A stretch of DNA of 64,000 nt from Escherichia phage vB_EcoM_ESCO50 (OM386664.1), one strand, 5' to 3'. Counted from the stretch's first letter, positions 3,796-64,000 are shown. The notes: generated from the sequence alone by a model not told the origin. Numbers and translations: made by a program.

Positions 3796-6030
3796 CTAAA
3801 CACCACAACCCTCGCAATAAGCATCTTGCAGTGCAGATTTACCTACACCAATGCGACTGTTAAGGTAGTACATGGTTTTCATACCTACCGAGTTGGCATA
3901 AATCATGTACTTCAGAGCTTGAGCCAATGATACCTTTTTAGACTTTGCATAGTCAACATAGAAGTCTGAAGAAATAGCTTGACCAGTGAACTTTTGAACA
4001 ATTGCATAACAATCAATCATATCAAAGGTGTCAATATCCCAAGCAATTTCATAGACATACTTCAACTCTTCATAATCTGGAACAATAAACAGCACGTTAC
4101 CAGTTGCAGACTTTTTAGTTAAAATAAAGTCACGAATTGGGTACAAGCCATTTGTCGTATTAGTTGCTAGTGAAGAACTCTCATTAGGCATGTAAGCTTC
4201 TAATACAGAGTTTCGGATTCCACCATTTTCTTTGATACGTTGTGCTAAGTCATCCCAATCATATCGTAGTTTTGCATCATGCTTTTCATCAATCTTCTTG
4301 TTAGCTGTTTTTGGAGGAACCCAGCCTTCAGGATACTTAGTGAACTTCATGTACTCTGGAACGCCACGCTCTTTAGCAAGTCTCAGAGAGGCTTCATGCA
4401 GATAGTAAGAGTGCATCTCTGCCAGTTCATGAAGTTTCGTTTTACCTGCTCGTGAAGAGTAGTTCACGTAGTTCTTCGCAAGGTAATGAGCCACATTTGT
4501 AAGGCCAATCCCAACAGAACGACGCTTCTGTACATGGTTACGCATCGACGGATACGGATAATCCATAAGGTCAATAACGGAGTCAACCATTGCAAGAGCA
4601 TAATAAGCAACGTCAGCGTATTCATCTTCTGAAATTCTCCCTGCAACCAAACTAGCTAGGAAGCAAAGAGCTACCTCACCATCCTCTTTCACAGCATCGT
4701 CTCTGTAAAGGTCTGTCTCTTTCTCAAAACCATACACTGGCAACACAATTTCCATACAAAGATTTGACATCTTCAATGGTTCTTTAAATGGTGTATGTGT
4801 GTTCGCATTGTTAGTGAAGAATGGATACACACGACCTGTAGCATAACGCTGTTGAATAAACAGTTTAGCAATTTCACGAGCCTTTACTCGTCTGTGCTTA
4901 ACTCCTGAATGTACTGCGTGACCAACTGCCATAGCAAACTCATCAGCAGATGCTGTGTAGAACATGTCATAGAGTTTTGGTGCATCTTTGTAAGAGAATA
5001 GCAACCAATCTGTATCATACTGAACACACTGCCAGAAGTAATCGTTTGTGCCGAATGAGTAGTCCATCTCATTAATACGTTTAGAAGGAACCGTTGTAGG
5101 GTGCTTCAAACGCAGTAAATCTTCAATCTGCGGGTCTAGAGCAGTGTAGAAGTTATTAGCTGAACCACCACGACTCTTCTGTTTGTTTGCCTCTACAGAT
5201 GAACGTACAAGCTTGTAATAAGGTAGTTTACCCATGTGCTCAATCGTATTTTGACGGATACCATCACCGATGGTACGTGTCTCCATCAGCATACCAATAC
5301 CAGCTTGCTTTGTGGTCATATCATAAGCAACCTTTGCAGCAATACCAAGTGATTCAGCAGTATCATTTGCCTTAATCAAACAGCATGACGCATAGCCTGA
5401 CTTGGTGGCTCTTAAACCGTTTAAATAAGGCGTAGGAGCGTTAATCTTCAGGTCAGATAGGTAAGTGTACAGCTTGATAACATCTTGTAACCTACGGTGC
5501 TTTGGTTGCTTCTCAAAGGCTTTCATAGCCATACCCATAAACATAAACTGTGGTGACTCAAAAAGTCTTCCAGTTTTAATATCACGGATACCATACTTGT
5601 CTCTGAACTGTTTCAAGACTGCATAACCGTAAGAGATATCTTTTGAGTGTACGATGTAACCTTGCAGGTATTCAAGCTCTTCCTGTGAATAATCCATCTT
5701 CTCCCAAAGTCCTGCTCTCTCCATATTTTTAACGAAGGTAATCAGCGTAGGAACCTTAGTAAAGCCTCCAAAGGCTTCTTTGTAGATAATACCCAAAAGT
5801 AGCCGTCCAGCCATATCTGAGTATTCTTGAGTTTGTTTATCAACACAAACATCAATCATGGCTTGGTGCATCTCTTTTGTAGTGCAACCTTCATAGATAC
5901 GTTTCATAGCTTCCATAGTGACTTCTGACCAGATAATTCCACGTTTATCTGCCCATGATGCCCACTTATTCAGTCTTTCTGGGTCAAAGCTTACTACTGT
6001 ACCGTTTGATTTTTTAATTGTCTTAATCAT
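3796..6030 (-). CDS. nrdA: Ribonucleotide reductase class I large (alpha) subunit
   Basis: 744 aa; contains SNLCMEI active-site-type motif and C-terminal CEGCG tail cysteines typical of class I alpha subunits. Confidence 0.9.
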   Translation of the reverse strand: MIKTIKKSNGTVVSFDPERLNKWASWADKRGIIWSEVTMEAMKRIYEGCTTKEMHQAMIDVCVDKQTQEYSDMAGRLLLGIIYKEAFGGFTKVPTLITFVKNMERAGLWEKMDYSQEELEYLQGYIVHSKDISYGYAVLKQFRDKYGIRDIKTGRLFESPQFMFMGMAMKAFEKQPKHRRLQDVIKLYTYLSDLKINAPTPYLNGLRATKSGYASCCLIKANDTAESLGIAAKVAYDMTTKQAGIGMLMETRTIGDGIRQNTIEHMGKLPYYKLVRSSVEANKQKSRGGSANNFYTALDPQIEDLLRLKHPTTVPSKRINEMDYSFGTNDYFWQCVQYDTDWLLFSYKDAPKLYDMFYTASADEFAMAVGHAVHSGVKHRRVKAREIAKLFIQQRYATGRVYPFFTNNANTHTPFKEPLKMSNLCMEIVLPVYGFEKETDLYRDDAVKEDGEVALCFLASLVAGRISEDEYADVAYYALAMVDSVIDLMDYPYPSMRNHVQKRRSVGIGLTNVAHYLAKNYVNYSSRAGKTKLHELAEMHSYYLHEASLRLAKERGVPEYMKFTKYPEGWVPPKTANKKIDEKHDAKLRYDWDDLAQRIKENGGIRNSVLEAYMPNESSSLATNTTNGLYPIRDFILTKKSATGNVLFIVPDYEELKYVYEIAWDIDTFDMIDCYAIVQKFTGQAISSDFYVDYAKSKKVSLAQALKYMIYANSVGMKTMYYLNSRIGVGKSALQDAYCEGCGV

Positions 6031-13563: not shown

Positions 13564-13624
13564 TTTATCTCCCTTAATTACTAAAAAGCCCCCAACTAAG
13601 GAGGCTTGTAAAATTTATAAAGAC

Positions 13625-17806: not shown

Positions 17807-18291
17807 CACTTCAAGATTACAAGGACAATTTTATTTACGACCCCGACAAAGGGGTCTTCTACAACAAGTATGACAGGAATAGGCAAGCTAAAGCTGGTCA
17901 GGTTGCCGGAGGAAGTGATGCTTATGGTTACAGGGTACTTAAATTCAAAGGTGTTGTAATAAAAGTACATCACCTTGTTTGGTGGTTTGAGCATGGTTAC
18001 AAACCTACTAAGATGATAGACCACATTGATGGTAATAGGAGCAATAACCACATTTCTAATCTTAGAGAGGCCGATAAATATGGAAACGCTCAAAACAGAG
18101 TAAAGCAGACAACTAACAAATCAGGTTACAAGGGTGTATATTACTTTAAAGACTGCAATAAGTGGAGGGCAGCTATAACATGCAGAGGTAAAAGGACATC
18201 ACTTGGTTTATTTGACACACCTGAAGAAGCCCATAAAGCTTACTGTGAAGCTGCTATAAAACTCCACGGAGAGTTTGCAAAACTAAGTTGA
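17788..18291 (+). CDS. HNH homing endonuclease with AP2-like DNA-binding domain
   Basis: HHLVWWFEHGYKP...IDHIDGNRSNNHISNLR is a classic HNH signature; start overlaps polymerase stop by 19 nt. Confidence 0.85.
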   Translation: MVRRTLTLQDYKDNFIYDPDKGVFYNKYDRNRQAKAGQVAGGSDAYGYRVLKFKGVVIKVHHLVWWFEHGYKPTKMIDHIDGNRSNNHISNLREADKYGNAQNRVKQTTNKSGYKGVYYFKDCNKWRAAITCRGKRTSLGLFDTPEEAHKAYCEAAIKLHGEFAKLS

Positions 18292-18321
18292 CAAGGTGCT
18301 CAGGGAAGAGTACCTTATACT
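18288..18321 (+). promoter_or_regulatory. Putative sigma70-type promoter (TTGACA-N17-TACCTT / TATACT)
   Basis: TTGACA at 18288-18293, 17-nt spacer, TAnnnT hexamers; about 25 nt upstream of the next ORF. Confidence 0.35.
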
Positions 18322-18342
18322 ATATCTTGTATAGGAGGGCTT

Positions 18343-18561
18343 ATGACACTTTCAGAGATTGAAGTTCAGTTGCAATGTGCTGGTTATTCTCAAAAAGAGA
18401 TTGAAGGGATGTTTATTGTTCTTTGCAGTGGTTCTAGAAATTTGAAGGTAAGTCCTGAATTTCTTCGTAGAGTAGATATCTTTATTGCTGGAGGCAAAAT
18501 TGCAAAAGACAAGACAGGGTACTTAAAAGGTGAACGTATTGATATTCTGGAGTTGATATGA
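18343..18561 (+). CDS. Hypothetical protein (72 aa)
   Basis: ORF track. Confidence 0.45.
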   Translation: MTLSEIEVQLQCAGYSQKEIEGMFIVLCSGSRNLKVSPEFLRRVDIFIAGGKIAKDKTGYLKGERIDILELI

Positions 18562-18827
18562 ATAGTTTGTATAGTCTCTGGAGAAGGGTTATGTGGAAAG
18601 CAGTAATTGCACTTGGTGTTATTTTTCTATCTGGCTGCAATCCTTCTTATGAAGATAAAAATGCTTCTTACAGTCTCCCACCAGAGATGCAAGATTGCAT
18701 AGTCTATGAGTTATATGGTGATACTACAAGTAGAGATATTGTTGTTGTAAGATGTCCAAACTCTCAAACAACAACATCTTATAGCTATGGCAAAAATGGC
18801 CAATCACATACTACGGTTATTGAGTGA
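18558..18827 (+). CDS. Small predicted outer-membrane lipoprotein (lipobox LSGC)
   Basis: Signal peptide MNSLYSLWRRVMWKAVIALGVIFLSGC with lipobox; ~65-aa mature part with two further Cys. Confidence 0.55.
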   Translation: MNSLYSLWRRVMWKAVIALGVIFLSGCNPSYEDKNASYSLPPEMQDCIVYELYGDTTSRDIVVVRCPNSQTTTSYSYGKNGQSHTTVIE

Positions 18828-19044: not shown

Positions 19045-20141
19045 CAACACTGTACAAACAAAATAAAGATGGCTCTTTCAACGTCTGGTCATGTACTGCT
19101 GTAGGTGATAAAGTTATTACAACCTACGGTAAAGAAAATGGCAAGATGATGTTTGAAGAGTATACAGCAGAACCTAAAAACATCGGTAAAAAGAATGAGC
19201 GTAATGCTGAACAGCAAGCCCTCTTTGAAGTTGCTGCTAAGTATAAAAAGCAAGTTGACCGTAAAGGGTATGCTTACACAAAAGAGTCTGCACAGAATAC
19301 TGAGAAGGTAGGTGTACAGCTTGCTCATGATGCTGCAAAGGTTAGCCATGCAAAGTATCTGAAGTTCCCTGCTGATGCTCAACCAAAGCTTGATGGTGTC
19401 CGTTGTAGAATTTCAAGAGATGCTGATTCAGTTAGTTTCACAGCTTATTCTCGTGAGAATACTGTTTACAACGTTCCAGCAGAACTAATCCCAGATTTGC
19501 TTTTGTTGCTTAAATTACATCCACAAGTTGAAGACTTTGACGGAGAGATTTATGCTCATGGTTGGGACTTAGAAGATATTGTGTCTATGATTAAGAATGC
19601 TGACAATCCAGACCGTCACCTTCTTAAATTCTACTGGTATGATACCTGTGACAATTCAAAATCTTGGCCTGAGCGTCGTGAAGTTATTGATAACTCACCC
19701 ATTGTTGAACTTGGGGATACCTGTAGAGTGGTTCCTGTACAGACTATCCGTGTAAATTCTTGGGAAGAGTTTGACGAAGCTCATGATAAGTGGGTTGAAG
19801 CTAAGTTTGAAGGTGCAATGTACCGTTCAATCTCTGAAGACTCCTTCTATGAGTGTTGTCACCGTTCATACTTCTTGATTAAGCACAAGAAGATGCACAC
19901 TGAAGAGTTTAAAGTGACTGGTGTCAAGACCGATAAGCGTGGTCATGGTAAGTTCGTTGTAGAGACTCTTCCTAACGTCTTTGTAGATGTCTCATGGAAG
20001 ACTACTCATGAGAAGAAACAGTATCTTGCTGAACATCCTGAAGAGTTTATCGGGAAACCTTTAACAGTTCAGTTCCAGAAGATGACTCGTAAGGGTTCTT
20101 TACAGTTCCCTGTTGGGCTAGTTATTCGAGATTACGAATAA
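19041..20141 (+). CDS. ATP-dependent DNA ligase-like nucleotidyltransferase
   Basis: Covalent nucleotidyltransferase motif I KLDGVRC (KxDG) at ~residue 116; 366 aa. Confidence 0.65.
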   Translation: MTTLYKQNKDGSFNVWSCTAVGDKVITTYGKENGKMMFEEYTAEPKNIGKKNERNAEQQALFEVAAKYKKQVDRKGYAYTKESAQNTEKVGVQLAHDAAKVSHAKYLKFPADAQPKLDGVRCRISRDADSVSFTAYSRENTVYNVPAELIPDLLLLLKLHPQVEDFDGEIYAHGWDLEDIVSMIKNADNPDRHLLKFYWYDTCDNSKSWPERREVIDNSPIVELGDTCRVVPVQTIRVNSWEEFDEAHDKWVEAKFEGAMYRSISEDSFYECCHRSYFLIKHKKMHTEEFKVTGVKTDKRGHGKFVVETLPNVFVDVSWKTTHEKKQYLAEHPEEFIGKPLTVQFQKMTRKGSLQFPVGLVIRDYE

Positions 20142-20221
20142 AAAGTTGTTGACATAGAAAATTTGGTGAGTATACTGAGCAGCATAAACCGACGGGTACT
20201 CACCAGCATCACTTAAGAGTC

Positions 20222-20347
20222 TTATAAGAGGGTTTTTAAGTGATGTAATGTAAGGCAAGGCAAGGCAAGGTGGGGTGTGGTCTGGCCAGGTTAGGTTCGG
20301 TGATGTCAGGTATGGGTAGTTAGTCTCAGCTACATTAAAATGAGACT
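20222..20347 (+). repeat. Composite intergenic element, copy A: aagagggttttt motif + GGT-rich tract + hairpin agtctca/tgagact
   Basis: Read directly; see findings. Confidence 0.6.
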
Positions 20348-20356
20348 TACCTTTTT

Positions 20357-20494
20357 AAAAGGTCTTTAAGAGGGTTTTTTAATGAGGTAGGGTAAAGTAA
20401 TGCTTGGTCTGGTTTGGTAAGGCGCGGTCTGGTTTGGTAAGGTAAGGTTCGGTATGGTGTGGGTGGATGGTAGTAGCCACATTAAAAATCTACC
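20357..20494 (+). repeat. Composite intergenic element, copy B: aaaaggtctttaagagggtttttt + GGT-rich tract (internal 17-nt direct repeat ggtctggtttggtaagg x2) + hairpin ggtag/ctacc
   Basis: Read directly. Confidence 0.6.
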
Positions 20495-20552
20495 AAGTTT
20501 CTAAAGAGTCTTCTGTTGAGGGTTCTTTACAAACAACTTAACAATAAACTAA

Positions 20553-21601
<1,049 letters not shown>

Positions 21602-47284: not shown

Positions 47285-48901
47285 TCAACGTCTAAGCCCC
47301 TCATATGGGTTTCCTCTCACTAAGTCTGTGTGAACACCCATTGATGGTGGCTTGAATAATTTAACTTCATTAAGACTGTTGAAAGCATCACTGGTAGCAT
47401 CCACTTGGTCATCTTTAGTTTTGCCATCACCACAAAAGCCTTCAAGCTCTTGAAAATAAGCTTCGTTCCAACTACCTCTCAAGACTTTTACAAGTCCAGC
47501 TTCAGAAGCAGCAGAAAACCCCGCAAATCGGGTAACTTTATCTTTATTTGTTGGTTTAGCTCTTGCACGATAGCCTTTCTCGGCAAGTTTCCTGATGAGG
47601 GATGTTGCGTAGGATTTACCAGCAGCGCCTGGGTCTTGAGGGATAAAAATACCAGTTCGCTTACCGTCACTTTCAGCAGTCAAATTAATTTGTGTTTCGA
47701 CTCCAGAGGGTCTATCTCTAAATCTTACTACATCAATGATATAATAGCAACCGTCTTTTTTAGATTTACCCATCTTAACACCTGCTGTCCAGTCTGGATT
47801 AGGGTTAACCTCAGATGGTAAAGTTGCTGCTAAGTCCCATGCTCTAACATCAAATACATCTTCTGGGAGTGAATCAACAATCTCACACCATTGTCTTTGC
47901 CAGTAGTTTGAACCTTCTGCACGAGCCTTCCAGTTACCAAAACGAAGTCTTGCAACGTTTACAGGAGTGTTGTTTTCCAACTTACCACGATACTTAGGTT
48001 CTAAGAAGTCAAGAATTGGGTTATCATCAATCGTACCAGAGATGAATGTGTATGTTTGAGGAATCTCAAGAGGGAACATTTCAAGAATCTTATCCCTTTC
48101 CCAATCAGAAACCATCACACCATCATTCATTACATACCAACGAATACGACCACACTTTTCAGGGTCTGGATAACCTTCTTCATCTAAGAATGGTTCTACC
48201 CAATCGTAAATAAAGTGGTCTCTATCTGGGTTCATGGAAATCTTCATGTATGAATCACCTTCAGCACCAGAACGTAGACGGGTTTGTAGGTATGAAATCT
48301 GTGAAGCAGAGAAGTGTGTACCTTCGTCAAAGTAAATAGCTGAGTATTCAATACCCTGATGACCTTCAGCGTGCTTTTCAAGTTCTAGGTAGGTAAACTT
48401 GATAGTTGCCCCAGAAGGGAATGTGATAGTCATTTTCTGCTCGTGAGGAATCCCGCCAAACTTACCAAATAGTTTCTTTGCAGCAGGCCATAAACCACCT
48501 TGTAACTGTGTTGTGTTTCGACGGAAATACACAGCATTATAGTTAGGGTCTTCAATAAATCTTAAAGAGTCCATTAACAATGCGGCAGTCTTACCAGCAC
48601 CAGCAGCACCACCATAAAGAACCAAGTCAGCATTAGTGTTTAAAAAGACCTCTTGAGAACCCGGCTGAGGGGCTACATAGTTCTTATCAGTCATCAATTT
48701 AAAGATGAGGCGAACTTGGTCTGGTGTGTATCTTAATAAAGTCAGAATTTGAGTTGGAAGGAATTTAGAGGGGTCTTTACCGAATGATTTAATAATTTCT
48801 TTTACTTCATCAGAAAGCCCCAACTCTCCAGCTAGGACTTTCCTAACATCTTCCACTCGCTTCTGCTTAACAGTATTTAAGTCCATTAAGCGCCTCCGCA
48901 A
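47285..48901 (-). CDS. Terminase large subunit
   Basis: Walker A VLYGGAAGAGKTAALL in N-terminal ATPase; 538 aa. Confidence 0.85.
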   Translation of the reverse strand: MRRRLMDLNTVKQKRVEDVRKVLAGELGLSDEVKEIIKSFGKDPSKFLPTQILTLLRYTPDQVRLIFKLMTDKNYVAPQPGSQEVFLNTNADLVLYGGAAGAGKTAALLMDSLRFIEDPNYNAVYFRRNTTQLQGGLWPAAKKLFGKFGGIPHEQKMTITFPSGATIKFTYLELEKHAEGHQGIEYSAIYFDEGTHFSASQISYLQTRLRSGAEGDSYMKISMNPDRDHFIYDWVEPFLDEEGYPDPEKCGRIRWYVMNDGVMVSDWERDKILEMFPLEIPQTYTFISGTIDDNPILDFLEPKYRGKLENNTPVNVARLRFGNWKARAEGSNYWQRQWCEIVDSLPEDVFDVRAWDLAATLPSEVNPNPDWTAGVKMGKSKKDGCYYIIDVVRFRDRPSGVETQINLTAESDGKRTGIFIPQDPGAAGKSYATSLIRKLAEKGYRARAKPTNKDKVTRFAGFSAASEAGLVKVLRGSWNEAYFQELEGFCGDGKTKDDQVDATSDAFNSLNEVKLFKPPSMGVHTDLVRGNPYEGLRR

Positions 48902-49330: not shown

Positions 49331-49406
49331 TGGAGAATCCGAAGGGACTTGAACCCTTATAAACCTGTTTTGCAGACAGGAACATATCCATTTCTGTCAC
49401 GGATTC
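49331..49406 (-). tRNA. tRNA-Cys (anticodon GCA), CCA encoded
   Basis: Manual fold: perfect 7-bp acceptor, T-loop ttcaagt, anticodon loop cu-GCA-aa. Confidence 0.7.
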
Positions 49407-49411
49407 AAAAT

Positions 49412-49504
49412 TGGAGGAAGATACCAGACTTGAACTGGTACACCGATTTCTCAGCTACTGGCAGTTTAGCAAACTGCTCCCTTACCTTTTAGGGTTAATC
49501 TTCC
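49412..49504 (-). tRNA. tRNA-Ser (anticodon GCU), long variable arm
   Basis: Manual fold: perfect acceptor (ggaagat/atcttcc), anticodon stem gcagt/actgc, loop uu-GCU-aa, ~20-nt variable arm. Confidence 0.7.
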
Positions 49505-49505
49505 A

Positions 49506-50240
49506 TTATCTCTGTAATGCGCTCTTCATTTCTGGTGTTGCAATAGTATCAATCACACCAGTTTTACAAGCATCATCAAACCAGTCTGGTAAGATACCTG
49601 CTAAGAACCCATTGATATTCGTTTTAAGGTACTCTGCAATAAGGGCAGCTTCTTCTTCAATCATCTGCACAACTTCATCTGCATAAGCTGTAATCTTTGA
49701 AATACCTTCATTAATCTTACTAACAGCCTGATTAGCTAAATCAGAAATAGTCTCAAGACCCTCATCAATAGCGTCTTGTAAGTCACTTAACACACCGTTA
49801 ACACTGTCTAGTGTGCTGTTAATCATGTCAATAGCTTGCTGACCATACTCTGTAGCAACACCCATAATACCACTAAATGGTGTACAACCAACTTGTTCTC
49901 CTGCTGCACCCATAACATTGGAATACCCCTTTGCTACCTGCATACGTGATGAAAACTCATCAATAGACTTTTGACCATAGTCTGTTAGGGTCTTAGTAGT
50001 TGCTGTAGTGCTTGTAAGGCTTGTTGTAAAGCTGTTTAGAAGGACTGTTGTAAGTCCAGCAGCAACAAGCTTCTCCTGCATTGTAGGGTCTGTTACAGAG
50101 CTAATAGAGCTTACAAGTGATGTAGAGGCAGCTACGGTTCCACCGAGAACTGCTGCACCAGTAATAAGTGGGTTAGAAAACCCTCTACCGGTTTTTAAGA
50201 GATTAAAAATCTCCTTACCTTGTTCTGTCATCTCTTTCAT
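49506..50240 (-). CDS. Hypothetical Ser/Thr/Ala-rich protein embedded in the tRNA array (start trimmed to MKEMTEQ with AAAGG RBS)
   Basis: ORF track 49506..50288 would overlap the UAA tRNA; internal start at 50240 avoids this. Confidence 0.5.
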   Translation of the reverse strand: MKEMTEQGKEIFNLLKTGRGFSNPLITGAAVLGGTVAASTSLVSSISSVTDPTMQEKLVAAGLTTVLLNSFTTSLTSTTATTKTLTDYGQKSIDEFSSRMQVAKGYSNVMGAAGEQVGCTPFSGIMGVATEYGQQAIDMINSTLDSVNGVLSDLQDAIDEGLETISDLANQAVSKINEGISKITAYADEVVQMIEEEAALIAEYLKTNINGFLAGILPDWFDDACKTGVIDTIATPEMKSALQR

Positions 50241-50256
50241 TAAGCACCTTTGAAAT

Positions 50257-50335
50257 TGGTACTCCATATCGGATTCGAACCGATACATAACACAGATTTT
50301 AAGTCTGGCCTCTCTGCCAATTGGAGTAATGGAGC
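50257..50335 (-). tRNA. tRNA with anticodon UAA (leucine anticodon) but short variable region
   Basis: Manual fold: acceptor 7 bp (one G-U), T-arm atcgg-ttcgaat-ccgat, anticodon loop cu-UAA-aa, discriminator A73. Confidence 0.55.
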
Positions 50336-50337
50336 AT

Positions 50338-50413
50338 TGGCGGGGGATGTTGGAATTGAACCAACTTCTTCGATTTCAAAGACCGAGGTTTTAACCTTGT
50401 AAACTAATCCCCT
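50338..50413 (-). tRNA. tRNA-Gln (anticodon UUG)
   Basis: Manual fold: T-arm gttgg-ttcaatt-ccaac, anticodon loop cu-UUG-aa, U8 present; A1-C72 mismatch. Confidence 0.6.
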
Positions 50414-50421
50414 TTAAATCT

Positions 50422-50979
50422 TTACTTTCTCAGTGGATGAATAAAGAATGCCAACATAACTCTTCCCCTTGAGAATGCTCTTTCTTCTGGGACAACACTT
50501 TTTAGTTTCCATCCAATATAAATTCTCCAGTAAAACTGTTTACCAAAGATTTTAATTGATGGGATAAAAGCGAATAATCCCCAAGCATTGCTATTCCACA
50601 TTAGGAGATAACCAGTCTGATTATCTTCAGGGTCAGAACTTACGTTGATATTACCTTTCCACTTAGTAACATCTTTTACATCTCTTCCTAATACATGGTA
50701 AGAGAAGTTATAAGCTTTGTTTCTCCAGAGCCATCCAACTCTCTGCATGTAGACACCCAGCTTACCAATCTTTCTAATCTTAGCCCATCTTTTAACGTGG
50801 CCTTCATCACCATCAATCGGGTTGTCATAGGTCTCCATCCATCTGAATCCAAAAGGTAGATGCCCTTTCTTCTCACTGTAGAATGGAACCACGAAAGGTG
50901 CTAAGATGACTGCTAAGGTTGCTGCAAATGGTTCTAGTAAAGCTAGGAAAATCCATGAAGCATACTTCAAATATCTCAT
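50422..50979 (-). CDS. Membrane protein (185 aa) embedded in the tRNA array
   Basis: N-terminal hydrophobic segment IFLALLEPFAATLAVILAPFVVPF; Trp/Arg-rich remainder. Confidence 0.5.
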   Translation of the reverse strand: MRYLKYASWIFLALLEPFAATLAVILAPFVVPFYSEKKGHLPFGFRWMETYDNPIDGDEGHVKRWAKIRKIGKLGVYMQRVGWLWRNKAYNFSYHVLGRDVKDVTKWKGNINVSSDPEDNQTGYLLMWNSNAWGLFAFIPSIKIFGKQFYWRIYIGWKLKSVVPEERAFSRGRVMLAFFIHPLRK

Positions 50980-50998
50980 CTAAATAGCCTCTTAAAAT

Positions 50999-51076
50999 TG
51001 GTGTTCCAAGACGGATTCGAACCGTCACTAATACAAGGTTTGAGCTTGCATCCTCTGCCAATTGGGATACTGGAAC
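50999..51076 (-). tRNA. tRNA with anticodon CAA (leucine anticodon), short variable region
   Basis: Manual fold: T-arm gacgg-ttcgaat-ccgtc, anticodon loop cu-CAA-ac, D-loop similar to the UAA tRNA, A73. Confidence 0.55.
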
Positions 51077-51077
51077 A

Positions 51078-51152
51078 TGGTACTCACTAAAGGACTTGAA
51101 CCTTTTTCTTCATCTTGTAAGGGTGATGTTTTACCATATAAACTAAGCGAGT
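51078..51152 (-). tRNA. tRNA-Val (anticodon UAC)
   Basis: Manual fold: acceptor 7 bp (one G-U), anticodon loop cu-UAC-aa, U8. Confidence 0.65.
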
Positions 51153-51247
51153 GTGAAAGAGGTCTGAAGTTGTGCCGCTAACTCAACTCCGTGGAATTTG
51201 TTACGGTCTTCAGTTGACACCAGCGGTCTTTCACTTGACCTCTGAAT

Positions 51248-51324
51248 TGGTGCTGCTCACAGGACTCGAACCTGCATTTCCATCCTTACAAGGGATGTGT
51301 AATAGCCAATTATACGAAAGCAGC
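51248..51324 (-). tRNA. tRNA-Thr (anticodon UGU)
   Basis: Manual fold: perfect anticodon stem catcc/ggatg, loop cu-UGU-aa. Confidence 0.65.
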
Positions 51325-51331
51325 ATTAATT

Positions 51332-51406
51332 TGGAGCATCCAGAGGGAATCGAACCCTCAACCTCAGTTTGGAAGACTGTAATTTTCCCGTTTAAACTAT
51401 GGATGC
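51332..51406 (-). tRNA. tRNA-Gly (anticodon UCC)
   Basis: Manual fold: perfect acceptor, T-arm gaggg-ttcgatt-ccctc, loop cu-UCC-aa. Confidence 0.65.
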
Positions 51407-51412
51407 ACTAAT

Positions 51413-51488
51413 TGGTGGAGAAGCAGGGAATTGAACCCTGTACTTAAGTTTGCAAAACTTATGTTTTAACCATGTAAACTACATCCCC
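51413..51488 (-). tRNA. tRNA-Ala (anticodon UGC)
   Basis: Manual fold: perfect anticodon stem, loop uu-UGC-aa, and a G3-U70 wobble pair (the classic alanine identity element). Confidence 0.7.
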
Positions 51489-51494
51489 AATGTT

Positions 51495-51571
51495 TGGTAC
51501 ACCTAGAGAGATTCGAACTCACACTAAGCAGATTCTAAGTCTGCTGCCTCTACCAGTTGGGCTATAGGTGC
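51495..51571 (-). tRNA. tRNA with anticodon UAG (leucine anticodon), canonical 77-nt short-variable-arm geometry
   Basis: Manual fold: perfect 5-bp anticodon stem gcaga/tctgc, loop cu-UAG-aa, 5-nt variable loop, A73. Confidence 0.6.
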
Positions 51572-51828
51572 ATTAAATCTTTTTAGAGAACTTCTAAGAA
51601 CCTAAGCAACAAGGTTCCACAACAAGCTGTAATAACCTTAGAAGCCCTCTAAAAAGACCTAAAAAGGTCTTTGCATAGTCTTGTTTAATCCGGTGACTAG
51701 AACCTTTGGAGAGCTTGATATTATCTCTTCTCCGTGACACCTACTAGGTGCTCTATGAGTGTGTACGACAATACACGCGGGATACCAAAGCAACACCCTA
51801 ATGAAGCTTGGCTTTAAATCTTATTAGG

Positions 51829-51916
51829 CGGTAAGTAAAGGAGTCGAACCCTCACCGTATCTCTACAGTGGCAACTGTTTTCAAGACAGTTTGGCTACCA
51901 TTAGCCGCTACCTACC
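51829..51916 (-). tRNA. tRNA-Ser (anticodon UGA), long variable arm, CCA not encoded
   Basis: Manual fold: anticodon stem aactg/cagtt, loop cu-UGA-aa, ~18-nt variable region; T-stem has two G-U pairs. Confidence 0.5.
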
Positions 51917-51929
51917 CCTAATAAGACTT

Positions 51930-52012
51930 TGGCATGGGACGGAGGAGTTGAACCCCTTTGAAACGGTGTTGGAAGCCGTTGCTCATGCCTTAGAGTCTTA
52001 ACATCGTCCCAT
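51930..52012 (-). tRNA. tRNA-like gene, tentative Trp (anticodon CCA); D-region unusually long
   Basis: Perfect 7-bp acceptor and good T-arm; hairpin with loop uu-CCA-ac; but ~26 nt between anticodon arm and acceptor. Confidence 0.4.
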
Positions 52013-52155
52013 ACTATAATTCGAAGCTTACCGTATTATCTCAACACTGTAAAGCCCCTTCTCAGATTATTTACATGTTCTGGAAAACATGAGATACAGA
52101 CCACCTCCCTACAGGAAGACCCGCTTAGGTCGTCTAAGTAATCTGCTAACTAAAT

Positions 52156-52237
52156 TGGTCGAGGCGGCAGGACTCGAACCCGCATACTCCACTTACTCGG
52201 TTAACGTCTGTTTAGAAGACAGATGAGATACGCCCCG
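52156..52237 (-). tRNA. tRNA-like gene, tentative Arg (anticodon UCU); non-canonical arm spacing
   Basis: Acceptor (one G-U) and T-arm are clear; perfect hairpin tctgt-cttctaa-acaga; spacing leaves no room for a normal D-arm. Confidence 0.35.
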
Positions 52238-52485
52238 TAATTATCTTTAAAGACTCTCTTAGAAAGCCCTTAAAGATGCCCACCTTATTAATCATACCGT
52301 GGGCTAGTACGCCAAATTCTTTGATGAGGGATTGGAAGACCTCACTGGTGTTTAGCCTATCAAGCTACTGCCAGAAAAACATTGTCGTTTGCATTTATTT
52401 TAAATTTGCAAAATAGACGCTACGCAACGAAAACTAAGGGTACTATAAAGTGGTCACATCATTATTCTGCTACACTTCCATTAAA

Positions 52486-52625
52486 TTATCTTTGTAGATA
52501 AGCTACCCAGACTTGCTTAAGGTCTGTAGCGATGTGACTTTTTGGGTTTAAATCTAGAATTTACCCTTTCACCCTTTGTGGTCGCATACTCACAGGTAAG
52601 CTTAATAACTTATCTACAAAGATAA
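52486..52625. ncRNA. Candidate structured ncRNA: perfect 17-bp terminal inverted repeat enclosing ~106 nt with internal hairpins
   Basis: 52486-52502 ttatctttgtagataag is the exact reverse complement of 52609-52625; interior has hairpin cagac/gtctg and others; no T-loop. Confidence 0.3.
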
Positions 52626-52673
52626 TTACCAGACCGTTGTTTATCATCTTAACTAGATATCTCATAAAGTGTT

Positions 52674-52761
52674 TGGTGTGCCGTGTAGGAGTCGAACCTA
52701 CCGAGTCTCAATGACAAGGGATTTACAGTCCCCACCGCTACCATCTACGGGATAACGACAC
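52674..52761 (-). tRNA. tRNA-Tyr (anticodon GUA), long variable arm
   Basis: Manual fold: perfect T-arm gtagg-ttcgact-cctac, anticodon loop cu-GUA-aa, 16-nt variable region, acceptor with one G-U, U8. Confidence 0.6.
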
Positions 52762-52830
52762 ATTTAATTTCTATTCAGGCTAAGGACTTGCACCTTACAA
52801 ATCGGTGAGCAATCGCTTCTCTCCTGAATT

Positions 52831-52907
52831 TGGCGGTTAGTCAGGGATTCGAACCCTGTGCCATTCGCTTAACAGGCGACCGCACATACCTTATGTGCTT
52901 CCTAACC
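52831..52907 (-). tRNA. tRNA-Asn (anticodon GUU)
   Basis: Manual fold: perfect T-arm caggg-ttcgaat-ccctg, loop cu-GUU-aa. Confidence 0.6.
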
Positions 52908-52992
52908 ATGTTTAGTATTACCAGACCGTATCTTTCAATTTTTTCTGCTAAAAATTTAATAAATATTGCTGTAAACGGTCTTCTGTAAAATT

Positions 52993-53069
52993 TGGAGGCG
53001 GGTGCAGGAGTCGAACCTGCCGATACCATGCTAATGAGACATGTGAGACGCCCTTTCTCTATACCCGCA
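52993..53069 (-). tRNA. tRNA with anticodon CAU (Met, or Ile if C34 is modified)
   Basis: Manual fold: perfect T-arm gcagg-ttcgact-cctgc, loop cu-CAU-ua; acceptor register ambiguous at the 1-72 pair. Confidence 0.5.
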
Positions 53070-53199
53070 ATTCTTAATGACCAGACCAAATCTCTTCTTT
53101 GTCCGATTTACCTTCAGGTGAATAAGATTAAGTTTGCTGTAATTGGTCTTCTGTCAAAACTGGCGTTCCAGAAGGGATTTGTCTACTGGAACATTAATT

Positions 53200-53276
53200 T
53201 GGTCTCTGTTGGAGGACTTGAACCTCCGGCCTTACCGCCCCAAACGGAACGCTCTACCAAGCTGAGCTAAACAGAG
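53200..53276 (-). tRNA. tRNA-Pro (anticodon UGG)
   Basis: Manual fold: perfect acceptor (ctctgtt/aacagag), perfect T-arm, loop uu-UGG-gg with G37. Confidence 0.65.
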
Positions 53277-61912: not shown

Positions 61913-61988
61913 CTTTATATGTTCGTTTTGCAATCGCTGAAATGATTAACAAGGCAATCTTAAAAGACGCCTATGGAGAGACTAAGTA

Positions 61989-62213
61989 ATGATTAAGACA
62001 CCTGTACCAATTTTTGGATTTCCTTCTATAGAAGAATTTAAAGTTTATCTTGACAAAAACTTCTACAATGAGCAGCCTGTAACGCTTCTGAAGAGTGACT
62101 TATCAGAGCTTCTTGATATGATTATCAAGGTAACTCCTGAGAAGGAACCTGAACAGAAAGCTGAGAAGAAGACTAGTAAGAAATCCGATAAGAAGACTGA
62201 AAAGTCTGAGTAA
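61989..62213 (+). CDS. Hypothetical protein (74 aa), lysine-rich C-terminus
   Basis: ORF track. Confidence 0.4.
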   Translation: MIKTPVPIFGFPSIEEFKVYLDKNFYNEQPVTLLKSDLSELLDMIIKVTPEKEPEQKAEKKTSKKSDKKTEKSE

Positions 62214-62265
62214 TAACTTAGGGGTTACTTGATAGCCCCTTTGTAGAAACTTAGAAGGTAGCGAA

Positions 62266-62676
62266 ATGAAAATTAAAGAAGTCGTTCAAAAAGCAATGCT
62301 TGACAACTCAACTAAAGATGAAATGTACAACGATATTTGTGATAAGTTGAATTGCTCAAGACATGCTGCTAAGGTTCTTGTACATTGTTTTATCTGGGAA
62401 TGCTCAGAAGCTGGTGAGAAGCTAGAAGAACCTGAAGTGAAAACAGTCCCTAAAGTTGGTAATGTATACCGTCTTAAAGACTTCAAGACTGGAAAGATTG
62501 TTGCAAAAGGTGTAGTAGAATCTGTTTATCATGATGGTAAATACTTACTTAAAATATTTGAGTATGATAGTCGCTATACACACTTGTGTGGTCTTACATT
62601 CTTAGTAACAGAAGAAGACCTCATTAAAAACAATGACAACAAGTTTGCAGTACCAGACTTCCAAGTTTTACGATAA
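62266..62676 (+). CDS. Hypothetical protein (136 aa)
   Basis: ORF track. Confidence 0.45.
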   Translation: MKIKEVVQKAMLDNSTKDEMYNDICDKLNCSRHAAKVLVHCFIWECSEAGEKLEEPEVKTVPKVGNVYRLKDFKTGKIVAKGVVESVYHDGKYLLKIFEYDSRYTHLCGLTFLVTEEDLIKNNDNKFAVPDFQVLR

Positions 62677-63238
62677 TGGTGTGATAGCTATGGAAAAAGA
62701 TAACTTAAAAGAAGTTGAAGGTAACTACCTAGTCCTTGACTGGAGTGATATTCGAGAAGCATTATCTAAAGAAAGCCTTGACATACTGGAGCAGCTTGTC
62801 TTCTCAGTACGACATATCAGAGAAGTTGAAAATGGTAAAGAGCCACTTGAAGGAATCTTTGTAGAGAAGTCTTATCCGTTCTATGAAGATACTTTACAGA
62901 AAGTTAAAATGTACTTTAAACAGAAGAACCGTAAAGTGGTCACTATGGTATCTCTTGGTGGACAGAGTATGTCTGTGATGGAAGATATCAATCCTAAGAG
63001 ACCAAGTAAGGGTGTCTGTATAAAAATCACAGGGCATGAAGAGTATATCTCAATTGATGATTTTAGTGCACTCTGTAATGGTTCTGCTGTCTTTAATGGG
63101 TTTCACTATGATATCCGAGTGTATCCAATCAAGGGAGATGCTGTTATGATGCAGATATTCGATATCAATGGTGGATTTACTCATTTTTATCAGACAACCA
63201 AGTCATCATTGAAGACAGTTTTAGAAAGTCTGATTTAA
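62633..63238 (+). CDS. Hypothetical protein (201 aa)
   Basis: ORF track. Confidence 0.45.
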   Translation: MTTSLQYQTSKFYDNGVIAMEKDNLKEVEGNYLVLDWSDIREALSKESLDILEQLVFSVRHIREVENGKEPLEGIFVEKSYPFYEDTLQKVKMYFKQKNRKVVTMVSLGGQSMSVMEDINPKRPSKGVCIKITGHEEYISIDDFSALCNGSAVFNGFHYDIRVYPIKGDAVMMQIFDINGGFTHFYQTTKSSLKTVLESLI

Positions 63239-63250
63239 AATATCTTAAGA

Positions 63251-63275
63251 GCCTCCTTAATTGGGGGCTTTTTAT
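63251..63275 (+). terminator. Terminator-like hairpin (gcctcc...gggggc with one G-U) followed by ttttttatt
   Basis: Directly after last plus-strand gene. Confidence 0.45.
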
Positions 63276-63299
63276 TGAGTAAAATTTACGAAATTTATA

Positions 63300-64000
63300 A
63301 TTTTTATAAAATTTTATCGGTTGTCCCAACCTCTGGGTCACCATCATATGTGAATAAAATATCTATCCTTCTTAACAACCTTCTTAATCTTACTCTCTAT
63401 ATATAGTTATATAGTATTATATAGTATCTTAGTAACTATCTAGTGGTCTTAATAGCCTCTCTGTATAACCCTTCTAACAAGCCCTCTAACAAGCCTTCTT
63501 AACAGCCTATACAATCACCTTAACCATCCCTCTACACCCTCTTAGAAGCTCCTATACACCTCTTAATCTCTAGGTAAGCTATGACACTCTCTATAGGTGT
63601 TCACTAGGCACTACTAAGCCTCTATATAGACTGTTTTAACAAACTTAACAGGAATATCTTTACAGACCTTATCTCACAAGGTCTAACACGGTACTAACAA
63701 GGTATCTTATAAGCCTGTTTCTACCTGTATTTTAGAAAGACTGTATAGGTAATTATTCAGAATCTAAAAATTTTTATAAAATAGGACTATCAAGTCATTT
63801 TTTAGGGTCTTTGAAGGAACTGAAAAATATCTGATTAGGATGTATATCTGCTTGGTAGCCCTTAACAGCCCTGTAACATCCCCTTTGCAAAATTTTAAAA
63901 TATCATTAACAAACTCTTAACAGTTCTCACATCTTTTTAACATCTCTTCAGAGGTCTTAACAGATTCTTAACAGTTTTAACAAGAGGGTAACAGTTTCTT
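63300..64000. repeat. Non-coding, G-poor region with multiple short direct repeats (atatagt x3, ctctaacaagcc x3, many TTAACAG copies)
   Basis: No ORF of 60 aa or more on either strand; strong plus-strand G depletion; repeats read directly. Confidence 0.6.

What the first reader, a model, noticed from the sequence alone, without database searches (positions are those of the whole stretch)
63300..64000. G-poor non-coding terminal region with iteron-like short repeats
After the last plus-strand gene and its terminator there are ~700 bp with no plausible ORF, strong plus-strand G depletion, and stacked short direct repeats: atatagt x3 (63399-63445), ctctaacaagcc-type x3 (63469-63507), and at least eight TTAACAG/CTAACAAG copies (for example 63861, 63916, 63956, 63967, 63988). 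This is the signature of an origin of replication, a packaging site or a genome-terminus region.
Basis: partly seen in the sequence, partly recalled or inferred. Interest (0 to 1): 0.55.

Follow-up and report, generated by a model that had tools for sequence, protein, structure and literature searches.

The report
Phage genome end with phased repeats
This stretch is the region next to, and running into, the roughly 580-base repeat that sits at both physical ends of Felix O1-type phage DNA, so it is a known kind of genome end, although its dense array of short evenly spaced repeats has not been studied.

Summary
After the last + gene (62633-63238) and its terminator (63250-63277) there is no credible ORF. 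The + strand has the lowest G content of the window (10% in 63340-63720). TAACAR occurs 14 times on + and 0 times on - in 700 bp, against about 1 per kb per strand elsewhere.

The window is a Felix O1-like myovirus (Felixounavirus). Window position 63854 (+/-2) is the inner boundary of the genus's short exact direct terminal repeat (DTR). The DTR is 608 bp in UAB_Phi87 by Bal31 digestion and run-off sequencing, exactly 580 bp in E9 and about 581 bp in GE_vB_7A. Many GenBank records begin or end at these boundaries. So 63278-63853 is the unique sub-terminal flank, and 63854-64000 is the first 147 bp of the DTR, which runs off the window.

New detail from this analysis:
- The whole junction, about 1.5 kb in relatives, is an array of about 55 CTNNNNAG/TTAACA octamers phased at 10-11.5 bp.
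- The architecture is shared by three genera.
- TAACA cores are conserved and spacers are free inside the DTR.
- The unique flank is more conserved than the neighbouring genes.
- T7's concatemer junction has the same layout.

Terminase recognition of the repeats is inferred, not shown. An origin function has no support but is not excluded.

The parts
62633..63238 (+). Last gene of the rightward (late) block, 201 aa, function unknown. It marks the left edge of the non-coding junction.
   Evidence: ORF list. PHROG 4330, unknown function, E=1e-107. Homologues are annotated as hypothetical in finno, E9 and ESCO45.
63250..63277 (+). Rho-independent terminator of the rightward block (AGCCTCC-TTAATT-GGGGGCT followed by TTTTTATT).
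   Evidence: Terminator scan: stem 63253-63267 plus T run. The same site is found in ESCO45 and is annotated as a terminator in wV8 and Moogle.
63278..63320 (.). Stretch of about 90% A+T directly after the terminator. It is variable in relatives (25-bp deletion in finno).
   Evidence: Sequence. 40-mers with AT >= 0.9 occur only here in the E9 junction. The deletion is seen in alignment A1.
63340..63720 (+). Unique sub-terminal flank: a G-poor (10% G), one-orientation, phased array of CTNNNNAG-type octamers (CTTAACAG, CTAACAAG, CTATATAG, CTTAGAAG and others). It contains the tandem blocks 63398-63427 (TATATAGTAT x3) and 63470-63508 (CCTTCTAACAAG x3.2).
   Evidence: Best period 11.5 bp, with 0 of 300 coding controls reaching its spectral power. 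Nucleotide diversity (pi) is 0.051, with 81% invariant columns across 21 relatives. Identity to Mooglevirus is 75%, against 62% for the adjacent genes.
63721..63853 (.). Highly conserved AT-rich spacer ending at the cut. It contains CTTTGAAG (63809-63816), exactly 45 nt before the boundary, and TGTATATCTGCTT (63841-63853) abutting it.
   Evidence: pi 0.045, 84% invariant columns. Both blocks and their spacing are conserved in Felixounavirus, Mooglevirus and Kolesnikvirus.
63852..63856 (.). Proximal boundary of the direct terminal repeat, that is, the position of one physical genome end (terminase cut). The best estimate is CTGCTT|GG at 63853|63854.
   Evidence: UAB_Phi87 run-off sequence maps to 63852, the E9 DTR to 63854 and GE_vB_7A to 63856. 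SPARTY is cut at the same CTGCTT| and MM7 2 nt earlier. Record pEP20 starts here.
63854..64000 (+). First 147 bp of the roughly 580-bp DTR (the remaining ~430 bp lie beyond the window). It has 9 forward TAACA cores at about 10-11-bp phasing and the conserved block CCTTTGCAAAAT (63882-63893).
   Evidence: Alignment to the E9 DTR, 92% over 147 bp. Cores. Best period 10.25 bp. Cores align column for column across three genera.
47285..48901 (-). Large terminase subunit (T4-type), the enzyme expected to cut at the DTR boundaries. No recognisable small subunit lies next to it.
   Evidence: Pfam Terminase_6N E=2e-43 and Terminase_6C E=4e-33. PHROG 979. The neighbouring ORFs match only families of unknown function.

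Best explanation
The region is one side of the concatemer junction of a Felix O1-like phage that packages DNA with short, exact direct terminal repeats.

Layout in window orientation: late genes, then a terminator (63250-63277), then the unique sub-terminal flank (63278-63853), then the DTR starting at 63854 +/-2. The DTR is about 580 bp, and only its first 147 bp are in the window. Beyond the window lie a second repeat-rich flank and the terminators of the leftward gene block.

Shown, for relatives and by homology for this phage: virion DNA ends at fixed positions at the two DTR boundaries, and the DTR is present at both ends.

Inferred from what is established for T7-type DTR phages: replication gives concatemers with one DTR copy per junction. 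Terminase (TerL at 47285-48901) makes staggered nicks at the two boundaries. Extension from the 3' ends duplicates the DTR.

Inferred from anatomy: the roughly 55 helically phased CTNNNNAG/TTAACA octamers are a platform on which a sequence-specific recognition protein assembles on one face of the DNA. This protein is the still unidentified small terminase or an equivalent. The assembly would position the cuts. Forward TTAACA copies sit at the proximal DTR end and inverted copies at the distal end. The conserved cut-proximal module CTTTGAAG-N24-TGTATATCTGCTT| would define the proximal nick.
For: Identity
- 254 phage records match 62600-64000 at 80-96%, nearly all Felixounavirus.

Termini
- The UAB_Phi87 DTR (608 bp) was determined by Bal31 digestion plus run-off sequencing, and heating gave no change in restriction pattern, so there are no cos ends. 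Its published sequence maps with its end at window 63852.
- E9 has an exact 580-bp repeat at both record ends and GE_vB_7A a repeat of about 581 bp.
- PhageTerm called DTRs for E9 and D4 and a 581-bp DTR for Pr103Blw.
- Records E9, D4, I14.1, H12, CRP22, ZX4221, ECP2307, GE_vB_7A, SeKF_63 and pEP20 start or end at these boundaries.
- The same synteny and exact DTRs occur in Kolesnikvirus: SPARTY 439 bp, MM7 444 bp. The cut is in the same conserved sequence.

Functional constraint
- Flank pi is 0.045-0.051, against 0.151 at third codon positions of the adjacent gene.
- Identity to Mooglevirus is 75% for the flank and 81% for the DTR, against 62% for adjacent genes.
- Inside the DTR, TAACA cores have pi 0.039 and the rest 0.130; 0 of 579 circular shifts reach this difference.

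Phasing
- 11 of 27 successive spacings are exactly 11 bp.
- Spectral peaks lie at 10.25-11.5 bp, beyond all 300 coding controls.

Orientation
- Forward copies lie at the proximal DTR end and inverted copies at the distal end, in both E9 and SPARTY.

Analogue and mechanism
- The T7 junction has a 160-bp TR abutted by a 230-bp stretch with 11% G and 14 one-orientation CCTAAAG copies at 13-bp spacing.
- The nick-and-extend mechanism for DTR phages is stated in PMC5557969 and PMC10438801.
Against: - No read data exist for this phage, and the window stops inside the DTR. The second copy and the distal boundary cannot be seen in the window itself.
- Nothing shows that terminase binds the repeats. 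No small terminase is recognisable next to TerL.
- Exact nick positions differ by 2-9 nt between data sets.
- The inverted similarity of the two DTR ends is significant in E9 (0 of 552 controls). However, it lies in the first two TAACA sites rather than at the cuts, and it is absent in Kolesnikvirus.
- The unique flank is constrained along its whole length, not only at the cores (214 of 532 shifts). A simple 'array of binding sites' model does not predict this.
Confidence: 0.85

Rival explanations
1. Replication origin. The short repeats are iterons for a phage or host initiator, and the adjacent AT-rich stretches (63278-63320, 63721-63851) are the unwinding element. This could coexist with the terminus function, as T7 has secondary origins near its ends.
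For: - Repeats lie next to AT-rich DNA.
- There is one DnaA-box-like site at 63349-63357, which is a perfect TTATCCACA in E9.
- The unique flank is strongly conserved with no other explanation.
Against: - The cores are 7-8 bp at 11-bp phasing, with about 55 copies over 1.5 kb. They are not a few 17-22-bp iterons.
- The single DnaA-like box is at chance level: 11 relaxed matches in the whole window.
- There is no IHF or Fis consensus site.
- No initiator gene is adjacent. Both gene blocks converge on the region.
- Cumulative GC skew shows no feature beyond the switches in transcription strand.
Confidence: 0.15
2. Leading-end or entry element. The sub-terminal array acts when the DNA enters the cell, as the first or last segment ejected. 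It could bind a host or virion protein that protects the end or controls the rate of genome internalisation, rather than acting in packaging.
For: - It lies directly beside a physical end.
- T7 has a comparable array at the end of its genome. From my own knowledge, not tested here, that is the end which enters the cell first.
- The flank is conserved beyond the cores.
Against: - There is no evidence on which end enters first in this group.
- Repeats occur on both sides of the DTR and inside it. This fits a junction-centred function better than an end-specific one.
- Promoter-like sites are not in excess.
Confidence: 0.12
3. A non-coding RNA gene or small ORFs occupy the conserved flank, and the repeats are incidental.
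For: - Sequence conservation is high.
- The E9 record annotates 31-55 aa ORFs here.
- There is a weak promoter-like site at 63285-63312.
Against: - There is no Rfam match.
- RNA folding is no better than for shuffled sequence on either strand: z = -0.57 and -0.42.
- The only ORFs are 21-56 aa, and the arrays place stop codons in all frames.
- finno lacks 25 bp covering both the promoter-like -35 element and the start of the 43-aa ORF.
Confidence: 0.04
4. Non-functional slippage repeats: junk DNA between convergent transcription units.
For: Copy number of the 12-bp tandem unit varies between relatives. ESCO45 has two extra units.
Against: - The flank is about three times more conserved than third codon positions.
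- The cores are selectively conserved.
- The architecture is retained in three genera whose spacers have diverged.
Confidence: 0.02

Closest known systems
Direct terminal repeats of Felix O1-like phages (UAB_Phi87, 608 bp, Bardina et al. 2016, PMC4837284; Pr103Blw, 581 bp, PMC8303462; E9 and D4, PMC11737134)
   Same: This is the homologous sequence, at 90-92% identity over the shared 122-147 bp. The boundary is the same within 4 nt and the gene neighbourhood is the same.
   Different: Those papers report only the length or sequence of the repeat. The phased octamer array, the conserved unique flank and the conservation across genera are not described in the papers I could read. The window holds only the first 147 bp of the repeat.
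Bacteriophage T7/T3 concatemer junction: a 160-bp terminal repeat with flanking arrays of short repeats (named SRL/SRR by Dunn and Studier 1983; the names are from my own knowledge)
   Same: Both have a short exact DTR. A G-poor strand (11% G) abuts the repeat. Many one-orientation 6-7-nt cores are spaced 13 bp apart in T7 and 11 bp here, and copies also occur inside the repeat. This was tested on the T7 sequence. The packaging logic of nick, extend and duplicate is the same.
   Different: There is no sequence homology: CCTAAAG in T7, TTAACAG here. The DTR here is 3.6 times longer and the array about 1.5 kb against about 0.4 kb. The phage is a myovirus with a T4-type TerL, not a T7-type one. 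Genes converge on the junction, whereas in T7 early promoters read inward from the left end. T7 couples packaging to pausing of its own RNA polymerase at the junction, and no phage polymerase is known here.
P1 pac and lambda cosB: clusters of short terminase-binding repeats flanking a cut site (recalled from my own knowledge)
   Same: Multiple short repeats are placed on both sides of a cleavage site, as expected for small-terminase recognition.
   Different: P1 uses headful packaging from pac with permuted ends, and lambda makes cohesive ends. Here the ends are fixed and terminally repeated. No IHF site is found. GATC, the Dam site inside the P1 hexamers, is absent from the whole window.
Iteron-type replication origins (plasmid and lambdoid ori)
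   Same: Direct repeats lie next to AT-rich DNA.
   Different: Repeat length, copy number, extent and gene context do not fit. See the membership test.

Membership tests
Short exact DTR (T7-type) genome terminus / concatemer junction | An identical sequence of a few hundred bp is present at both ends of the linear virion DNA. | tested here: met
   Met in relatives: E9 580 bp at 100% identity, GE_vB_7A about 581 bp at 99.5%, SPARTY 439 bp and MM7 444 bp at 100%. The window aligns to the start of that repeat. The window itself cannot show the second copy.
Short exact DTR (T7-type) genome terminus / concatemer junction | Fixed, non-permuted, non-cohesive physical ends shown experimentally. | tested here: met
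   From the literature, for the homologue UAB_Phi87: two Bal31-sensitive fragments, sequencing run-off, and no change in restriction pattern on heating. The published DTR maps to window 63852. This has not been measured for this isolate.
Short exact DTR (T7-type) genome terminus / concatemer junction | Doubled read coverage and sharp read starts at the two boundaries in sequencing data. | not testable with these tools
   No reads are available. PhageTerm results are reported by others for E9, D4 and Pr103Blw.
Short exact DTR (T7-type) genome terminus / concatemer junction | The large terminase belongs to a clade whose members make DTR ends. | tested here: inconclusive
   TerL is present and is 99.4% identical to that of Felix O1. 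Bardina et al. place the Felix O1-group TerL in a DTR cluster. I built no tree here.
T7-like arrays of short repeats flanking the terminal repeat | Many copies of a 6-8-nt core in one orientation, regularly spaced, abutting the repeat on a G-poor strand. | tested here: met
   Window: 14 TAACAR on +, 0 on -, 10% G, period 10.25-11.5 bp. T7 measured the same way: 14 CCTAAAG copies, 13-bp spacing, 11% G. This is an architectural resemblance, not homology.
Terminase recognition (pac/cosB-like) site | The small terminase or another phage protein binds the repeats and is needed for cutting and packaging. | not testable with these tools
   No small terminase was identified. Only indirect support exists: selective conservation of the cores and helical phasing.
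Iteron-type replication origin | Several 17-22-bp iterons bound by an initiator that is usually encoded next to them. | tested here: not met
   The cores are 7-8 bp at 11-bp phasing, with about 55 copies over 1.5 kb. Adjacent genes are small unknowns that converge on the region.
Iteron-type replication origin | DnaA boxes, IHF or Fis sites, and an AT-rich unwinding element. | tested here: inconclusive
   There is one relaxed DnaA box at chance level and no IHF or Fis consensus site. AT-rich stretches are present.
Headful pac site (P22/P1/SPP1 type) | Circularly permuted, terminally redundant DNA with one fixed and one distributed end. | tested here: not met
   Both ends are fixed in relatives: the repeats at record ends are exact and of constant length across laboratories. 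Both ends of UAB_Phi87 are Bal31-sensitive discrete fragments.
cos site | Single-stranded cohesive ends of about 7-19 nt. | tested here: not met
   The heat test on UAB_Phi87 was negative. The terminal redundancy is 439-608 bp.

The most novel reading that the evidence does not exclude
The entire ~1.5-kb junction is a single helically phased nucleoprotein scaffold of about 55 CTNNNNAG/TTAACA octamers, conserved across the three Ounavirinae genera. Motifs point inward from both genome ends, and a cut-proximal module (CTTTGAAG-N24-TGTATATCTGCTT|) sets the nick. The unusually conserved unique flank would carry a second, still unknown cis function, such as priming of DTR duplication or an origin. 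This would be the first defined recognition architecture for a DTR-type myovirus with a T4-type terminase, and it would give a handle for finding the missing small terminase.
Probability: 0.35. Interest if true: 0.5.

Novelty: already known. Interest (0 to 1): 0.3.

Why it matters
For annotation, this fixes where the physical genome ends lie in this phage. It also shows that most GenBank records of the genus are opened arbitrarily and omit the second repeat copy. Small 'hypothetical proteins' called inside the junction should be removed.

For biology, how DTR-packaging terminases outside the T7 group recognise their cut sites is poorly known. Three features give concrete, mutable targets: a conserved, phased array with selectively constrained cores, an invariant cut-proximal module shared by three genera, and a unique flank more conserved than neighbouring genes. 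They can be tested by footprinting, plasmid-transduction assays and engineering of Felix O1-type therapeutic or diagnostic phages.

Tried and rejected
- **Structured RNA.** Rfam gave nothing on ESCO45's 11.4-kb locus or on window 63000-64000; only chance hits with E of 0.16 or more appeared. Folding of 63320-63851 on both strands was no better than shuffles.
- **Promoter cluster.** 7-8 sigma-70-like sites were found against 5.2-8.2 expected.
- **Coding.** There are only 21-56 aa ORFs. The E9 small-ORF annotations are judged to be over-calls.
- **Origin hallmarks.** DnaA, IHF and Fis consensus searches and GC skew gave nothing beyond one chance-level DnaA-like box.
- **Symmetric nick sites.** The idea that the two DTR boundaries carry the same 'outside|inside' sequence on opposite strands is significant in E9 only through the first two TAACA sites. 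It is not significant in SPARTY or MM7, so I keep it only as a weak lead.
- **Second array elsewhere.** A CTNNNNAG-rich spot at 61950-62250 is ordinary coding sequence rich in Lys and Glu codons.
- **Bas63 knockout map.** The Felixounavirus Bas63 paper (bioRxiv 10.1101/2024.10.10.617714) reports Bas63 fitness only for genes in the text I read; nothing on this junction.
- **More distant TerL relatives.** Pseudomonas PAK_P1/KPP10-like phages have about 40% TerL identity. I did not examine their termini.
- **Host PhoP/OmpR-type boxes.** These are direct hexamers at 11-bp spacing, recalled from memory. The resemblance to TGTTAA-N5-TGTTAA is 5 of 6 per half-site only. I did not pursue it.

Full report
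**1. What is in the sequence**

The last rightward gene ends at 63238. A rho-independent terminator follows (stem 63253-63267 plus a T run). From there to the window end there is no ORF longer than 56 aa.

The + strand of 63340-63720 has 10.2% G, against a window mean of 19.0% (sd 3.0). This is the lowest G content of all 64 kb.

- TAACAR occurs 14 times on + and never on - in 63300-64000. The density elsewhere is 1.0 per kb per strand.
- Spectral analysis gives a peak at 11.5 bp for the flank and 10.25 bp for 63852-64000. Both exceed all 300 same-length coding controls.

One correction applies: 63721-63851 is AT-rich but not G-poor.

**2. What genome this is, and what lies beyond the window**

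Megablast finds 254 phage records at 80-96% identity. Nearly all are Felix O1-like myoviruses of the genus Felixounavirus. In relatives the non-coding gap is 1.6-1.76 kb and lies between two convergent gene blocks. The window therefore shows only its first 760 bp.

**3. It is the genome terminus**

- Record E9 carries an exact 580-bp repeat at both ends, and GE_vB_7A one of about 581 bp. The authors of E9 and D4 report DTR termini from PhageTerm, and Pr103Blw has a 581-bp DTR.
- For UAB_Phi87 the ends were determined experimentally (Bardina et al. 2016). Heating did not change the restriction pattern, two fragments were Bal31-sensitive, and run-off sequencing gave a 608-bp DTR. The DTR sequence is printed in their Figure S1.
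- The reverse complement of that sequence begins at window 63852. E9's DTR begins at 63854 and GE_vB_7A's at 63856.
- Records from several laboratories start or end exactly at one of the two boundaries: E9, D4, I14.1, H12, CRP22, ZX4221, ECP2307, GE_vB_7A, SeKF_63 and pEP20.
- Whichard et al. had already inferred short terminal repeats for Felix O1 from genome size.

So 63278-63853 is unique sub-terminal DNA. 63854-64000 is the first 147 bp of the DTR, and the remaining ~430 bp lie beyond the window.

**4. Architecture of the whole junction (E9, ESCO45 and others)**

Inside the DTR, the first 280 bp hold 16 forward TAACA cores. Near the far end there are four forward copies at exact 11-bp spacing. 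These are followed by three inverted copies that abut the distal boundary. Of 27 successive spacings of + strand TAACA copies across the E9 junction, 11 are exactly 11 bp, and the consensus is yTTAACAr.

More generally, octamers of the form CTNNNNAG occur 55 times in 1.54 kb. That is 36 per kb against a background of 9.5 per kb. The left flank and every part of the DTR show periodicity of 10.25-11.5 bp; in the right flank it is only marginal (best period 11.25 bp; 8.7% of coding controls reach its power). The proximal cut falls inside one such octamer (CTT|GGTAG).

**5. Evidence of function from conservation**

I aligned 21 Felixounavirus junctions; the 21 IMG/VR loci came and the diversity analysis is.

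| Segment | Nucleotide diversity (pi) |
|---|---|
| Unique left flank | 0.051 (81% invariant columns) |
| AT-rich spacer | 0.045 (84% invariant columns) |
| Adjacent gene, codon positions 1 / 2 / 3 | 0.072 / 0.050 / 0.151 |
| DTR | 0.111 |
| Right flank | 0.235 |

Within the DTR, TAACA cores have pi 0.039 and all other positions 0.130. None of 579 circular shifts of the core mask reaches this difference. In the flank, cores and spacers are equally constrained.

Against Mooglevirus, the adjacent genes are 62% identical. The flank is 75% identical and the DTR 81%.

In Kolesnikvirus (SPARTY and MM7) BLAST finds only the start of the TTAACA array. Even so, the layout is the same:
- The order is lysis genes, terminator, CTTAAC arrays, AT-rich spacer, then an exact DTR of 439 or 444 bp.
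- The cut lies after the same TGTATATCTGCTT, with CTTTGAAG exactly 45 nt upstream.
- CCTTTGCAAAAT lies inside the repeat, and TTAACA cores align column for column.

**6. Rival readings tested**

- Structured RNA: no Rfam family, and folding z-scores of -0.57 and -0.42.
- Promoters: no excess.
- Coding: none is credible.
- Origin: there is one relaxed DnaA box at 63349-63357, at chance level. There is no IHF or Fis consensus site, no initiator gene nearby, and no skew feature beyond the strand switches. The origin reading is not excluded, but nothing supports it beyond AT-rich DNA lying next to repeats.

**7. Mechanism**

Shown, in relatives and by homology here: fixed ends at the two boundaries and a terminal repeat.

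Established for DTR phages and assumed here: concatemers carry one repeat per junction, terminase nicks at the two boundaries, and 3' extension duplicates the repeat. TerL is present at 47285-48901 and is of the T4 type.

Inferred: the phased cores are binding sites for a recognition protein that assembles on one face of the helix and positions the nicks. That protein is not identified, because the ORFs around TerL match only families of unknown function.

I tested whether the two boundaries form an inverted pair. In E9 both ends read inward as CCC-TTAACAT-YCYCT-TAACA, and none of 552 control comparisons reaches that score. The similarity lies inside the repeat rather than at the cuts, and it is not significant in Kolesnikvirus. 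The symmetric-nick idea is therefore only weakly supported. Reported nick positions also differ by 2-9 nt between data sets.

**8. Comparison with what is known**

The object itself, the DTR of Felix O1-type phages, is already in the literature and in GenBank.

The nearest mechanistic analogue is the T7 concatemer junction. Measured here on the T7 sequence, a 160-bp repeat is abutted by a 230-bp stretch with 11% G. That stretch holds 14 one-orientation CCTAAAG copies at 13-bp spacing, and further copies lie inside the repeat. The resemblance is architectural. There is no sequence homology, the terminase type differs, and transcription converges on the junction here rather than starting from it.

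In the papers I could search, I found no description of the phased array, of the conserved flank or of the cut module shared across genera. Some records merely label two short 'repeat_region' features.

**9. Verdict**

The 'iteron/origin' wording is not supported. The feature is an already known kind of element in an already known phage group, so overall interest is modest.

The unexplained part is why the unique flank is more constrained than the repeat itself, and which protein reads the roughly 55 phased octamers. This is a reasonable small experimental project.

Noticed in passing
window 1-64000: The tetranucleotide GATC (the Dam, MboI and Sau3AI site) is completely absent: 0 occurrences against 187.5 +/- 13 expected from dinucleotide-preserving shuffles. 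This points to strong counter-selection, such as restriction avoidance or avoidance of Dam, SeqA or MutH recognition.
   Followed up: partly
GenBank GU169904 (Staphylococcus phage SA1) 135884-137717; hits H7 and H89: A record labelled as a 147-kb Staphylococcus phage carries this enterobacterial Felixounavirus junction at 90-93% identity. It is probably a chimeric or contaminated assembly.
   Followed up: no
window 63852-63856, and the distal DTR boundary in L002, L007-L013: Reported DTR boundaries differ by exactly 2 nt at both ends between MM7 and SPARTY. At the proximal end there is also a 2-nt difference between UAB_Phi87 (Sanger run-off) and E9 (PhageTerm). At the distal end UAB_Phi87 is 9 nt shorter than E9. 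This could reflect a short overhang lost in end-repair, or it could be method noise.
   Followed up: partly
L002 (E9, PP886229) locus 4676-5592; FO1a gp24.1: Automated annotation places 31-55 aa 'hypothetical proteins' inside the junction and the DTR. The repeat arrays put stop codons in all frames, and the start of one such ORF is deleted in finno, so these are most likely over-calls.
   Followed up: partly
window 63250-63274 and 13582-13606: The terminator hairpin after the last gene recurs in inverted orientation about 50 kb away (96% identity over 25 nt). Presumably this is another copy of the same terminator.
   Followed up: no
window 49331-53276 (-): A cluster of 15 tRNA genes lies just upstream of the terminase gene on the same strand, interspersed with ORFs of unknown function (DUF7217, DUF7338).
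   Followed up: no
window 63349-63357; E9 junction 4750-4758: There is a DnaA-box-like nonamer, TTATTCACA on the - strand. In E9 it is the perfect consensus TTATCCACA. It is a single site and at chance level, but it sits in the conserved flank.
   Followed up: partly
window about 18240-18760 and 20080-20600: The 380-nt windows with the lowest C content in the window start at 18241-18381 and 20081-20221 (C about 12%, GC skew +0.32 to +0.43). They are the mirror image of the G-poor flank and were not examined.
   Followed up: no
most Felixounavirus GenBank records: Most of the roughly 250 records are opened at arbitrary positions and contain a single DTR copy in the middle of the record. Their stated genome lengths therefore understate virion DNA by about 580 bp.
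   Followed up: partly
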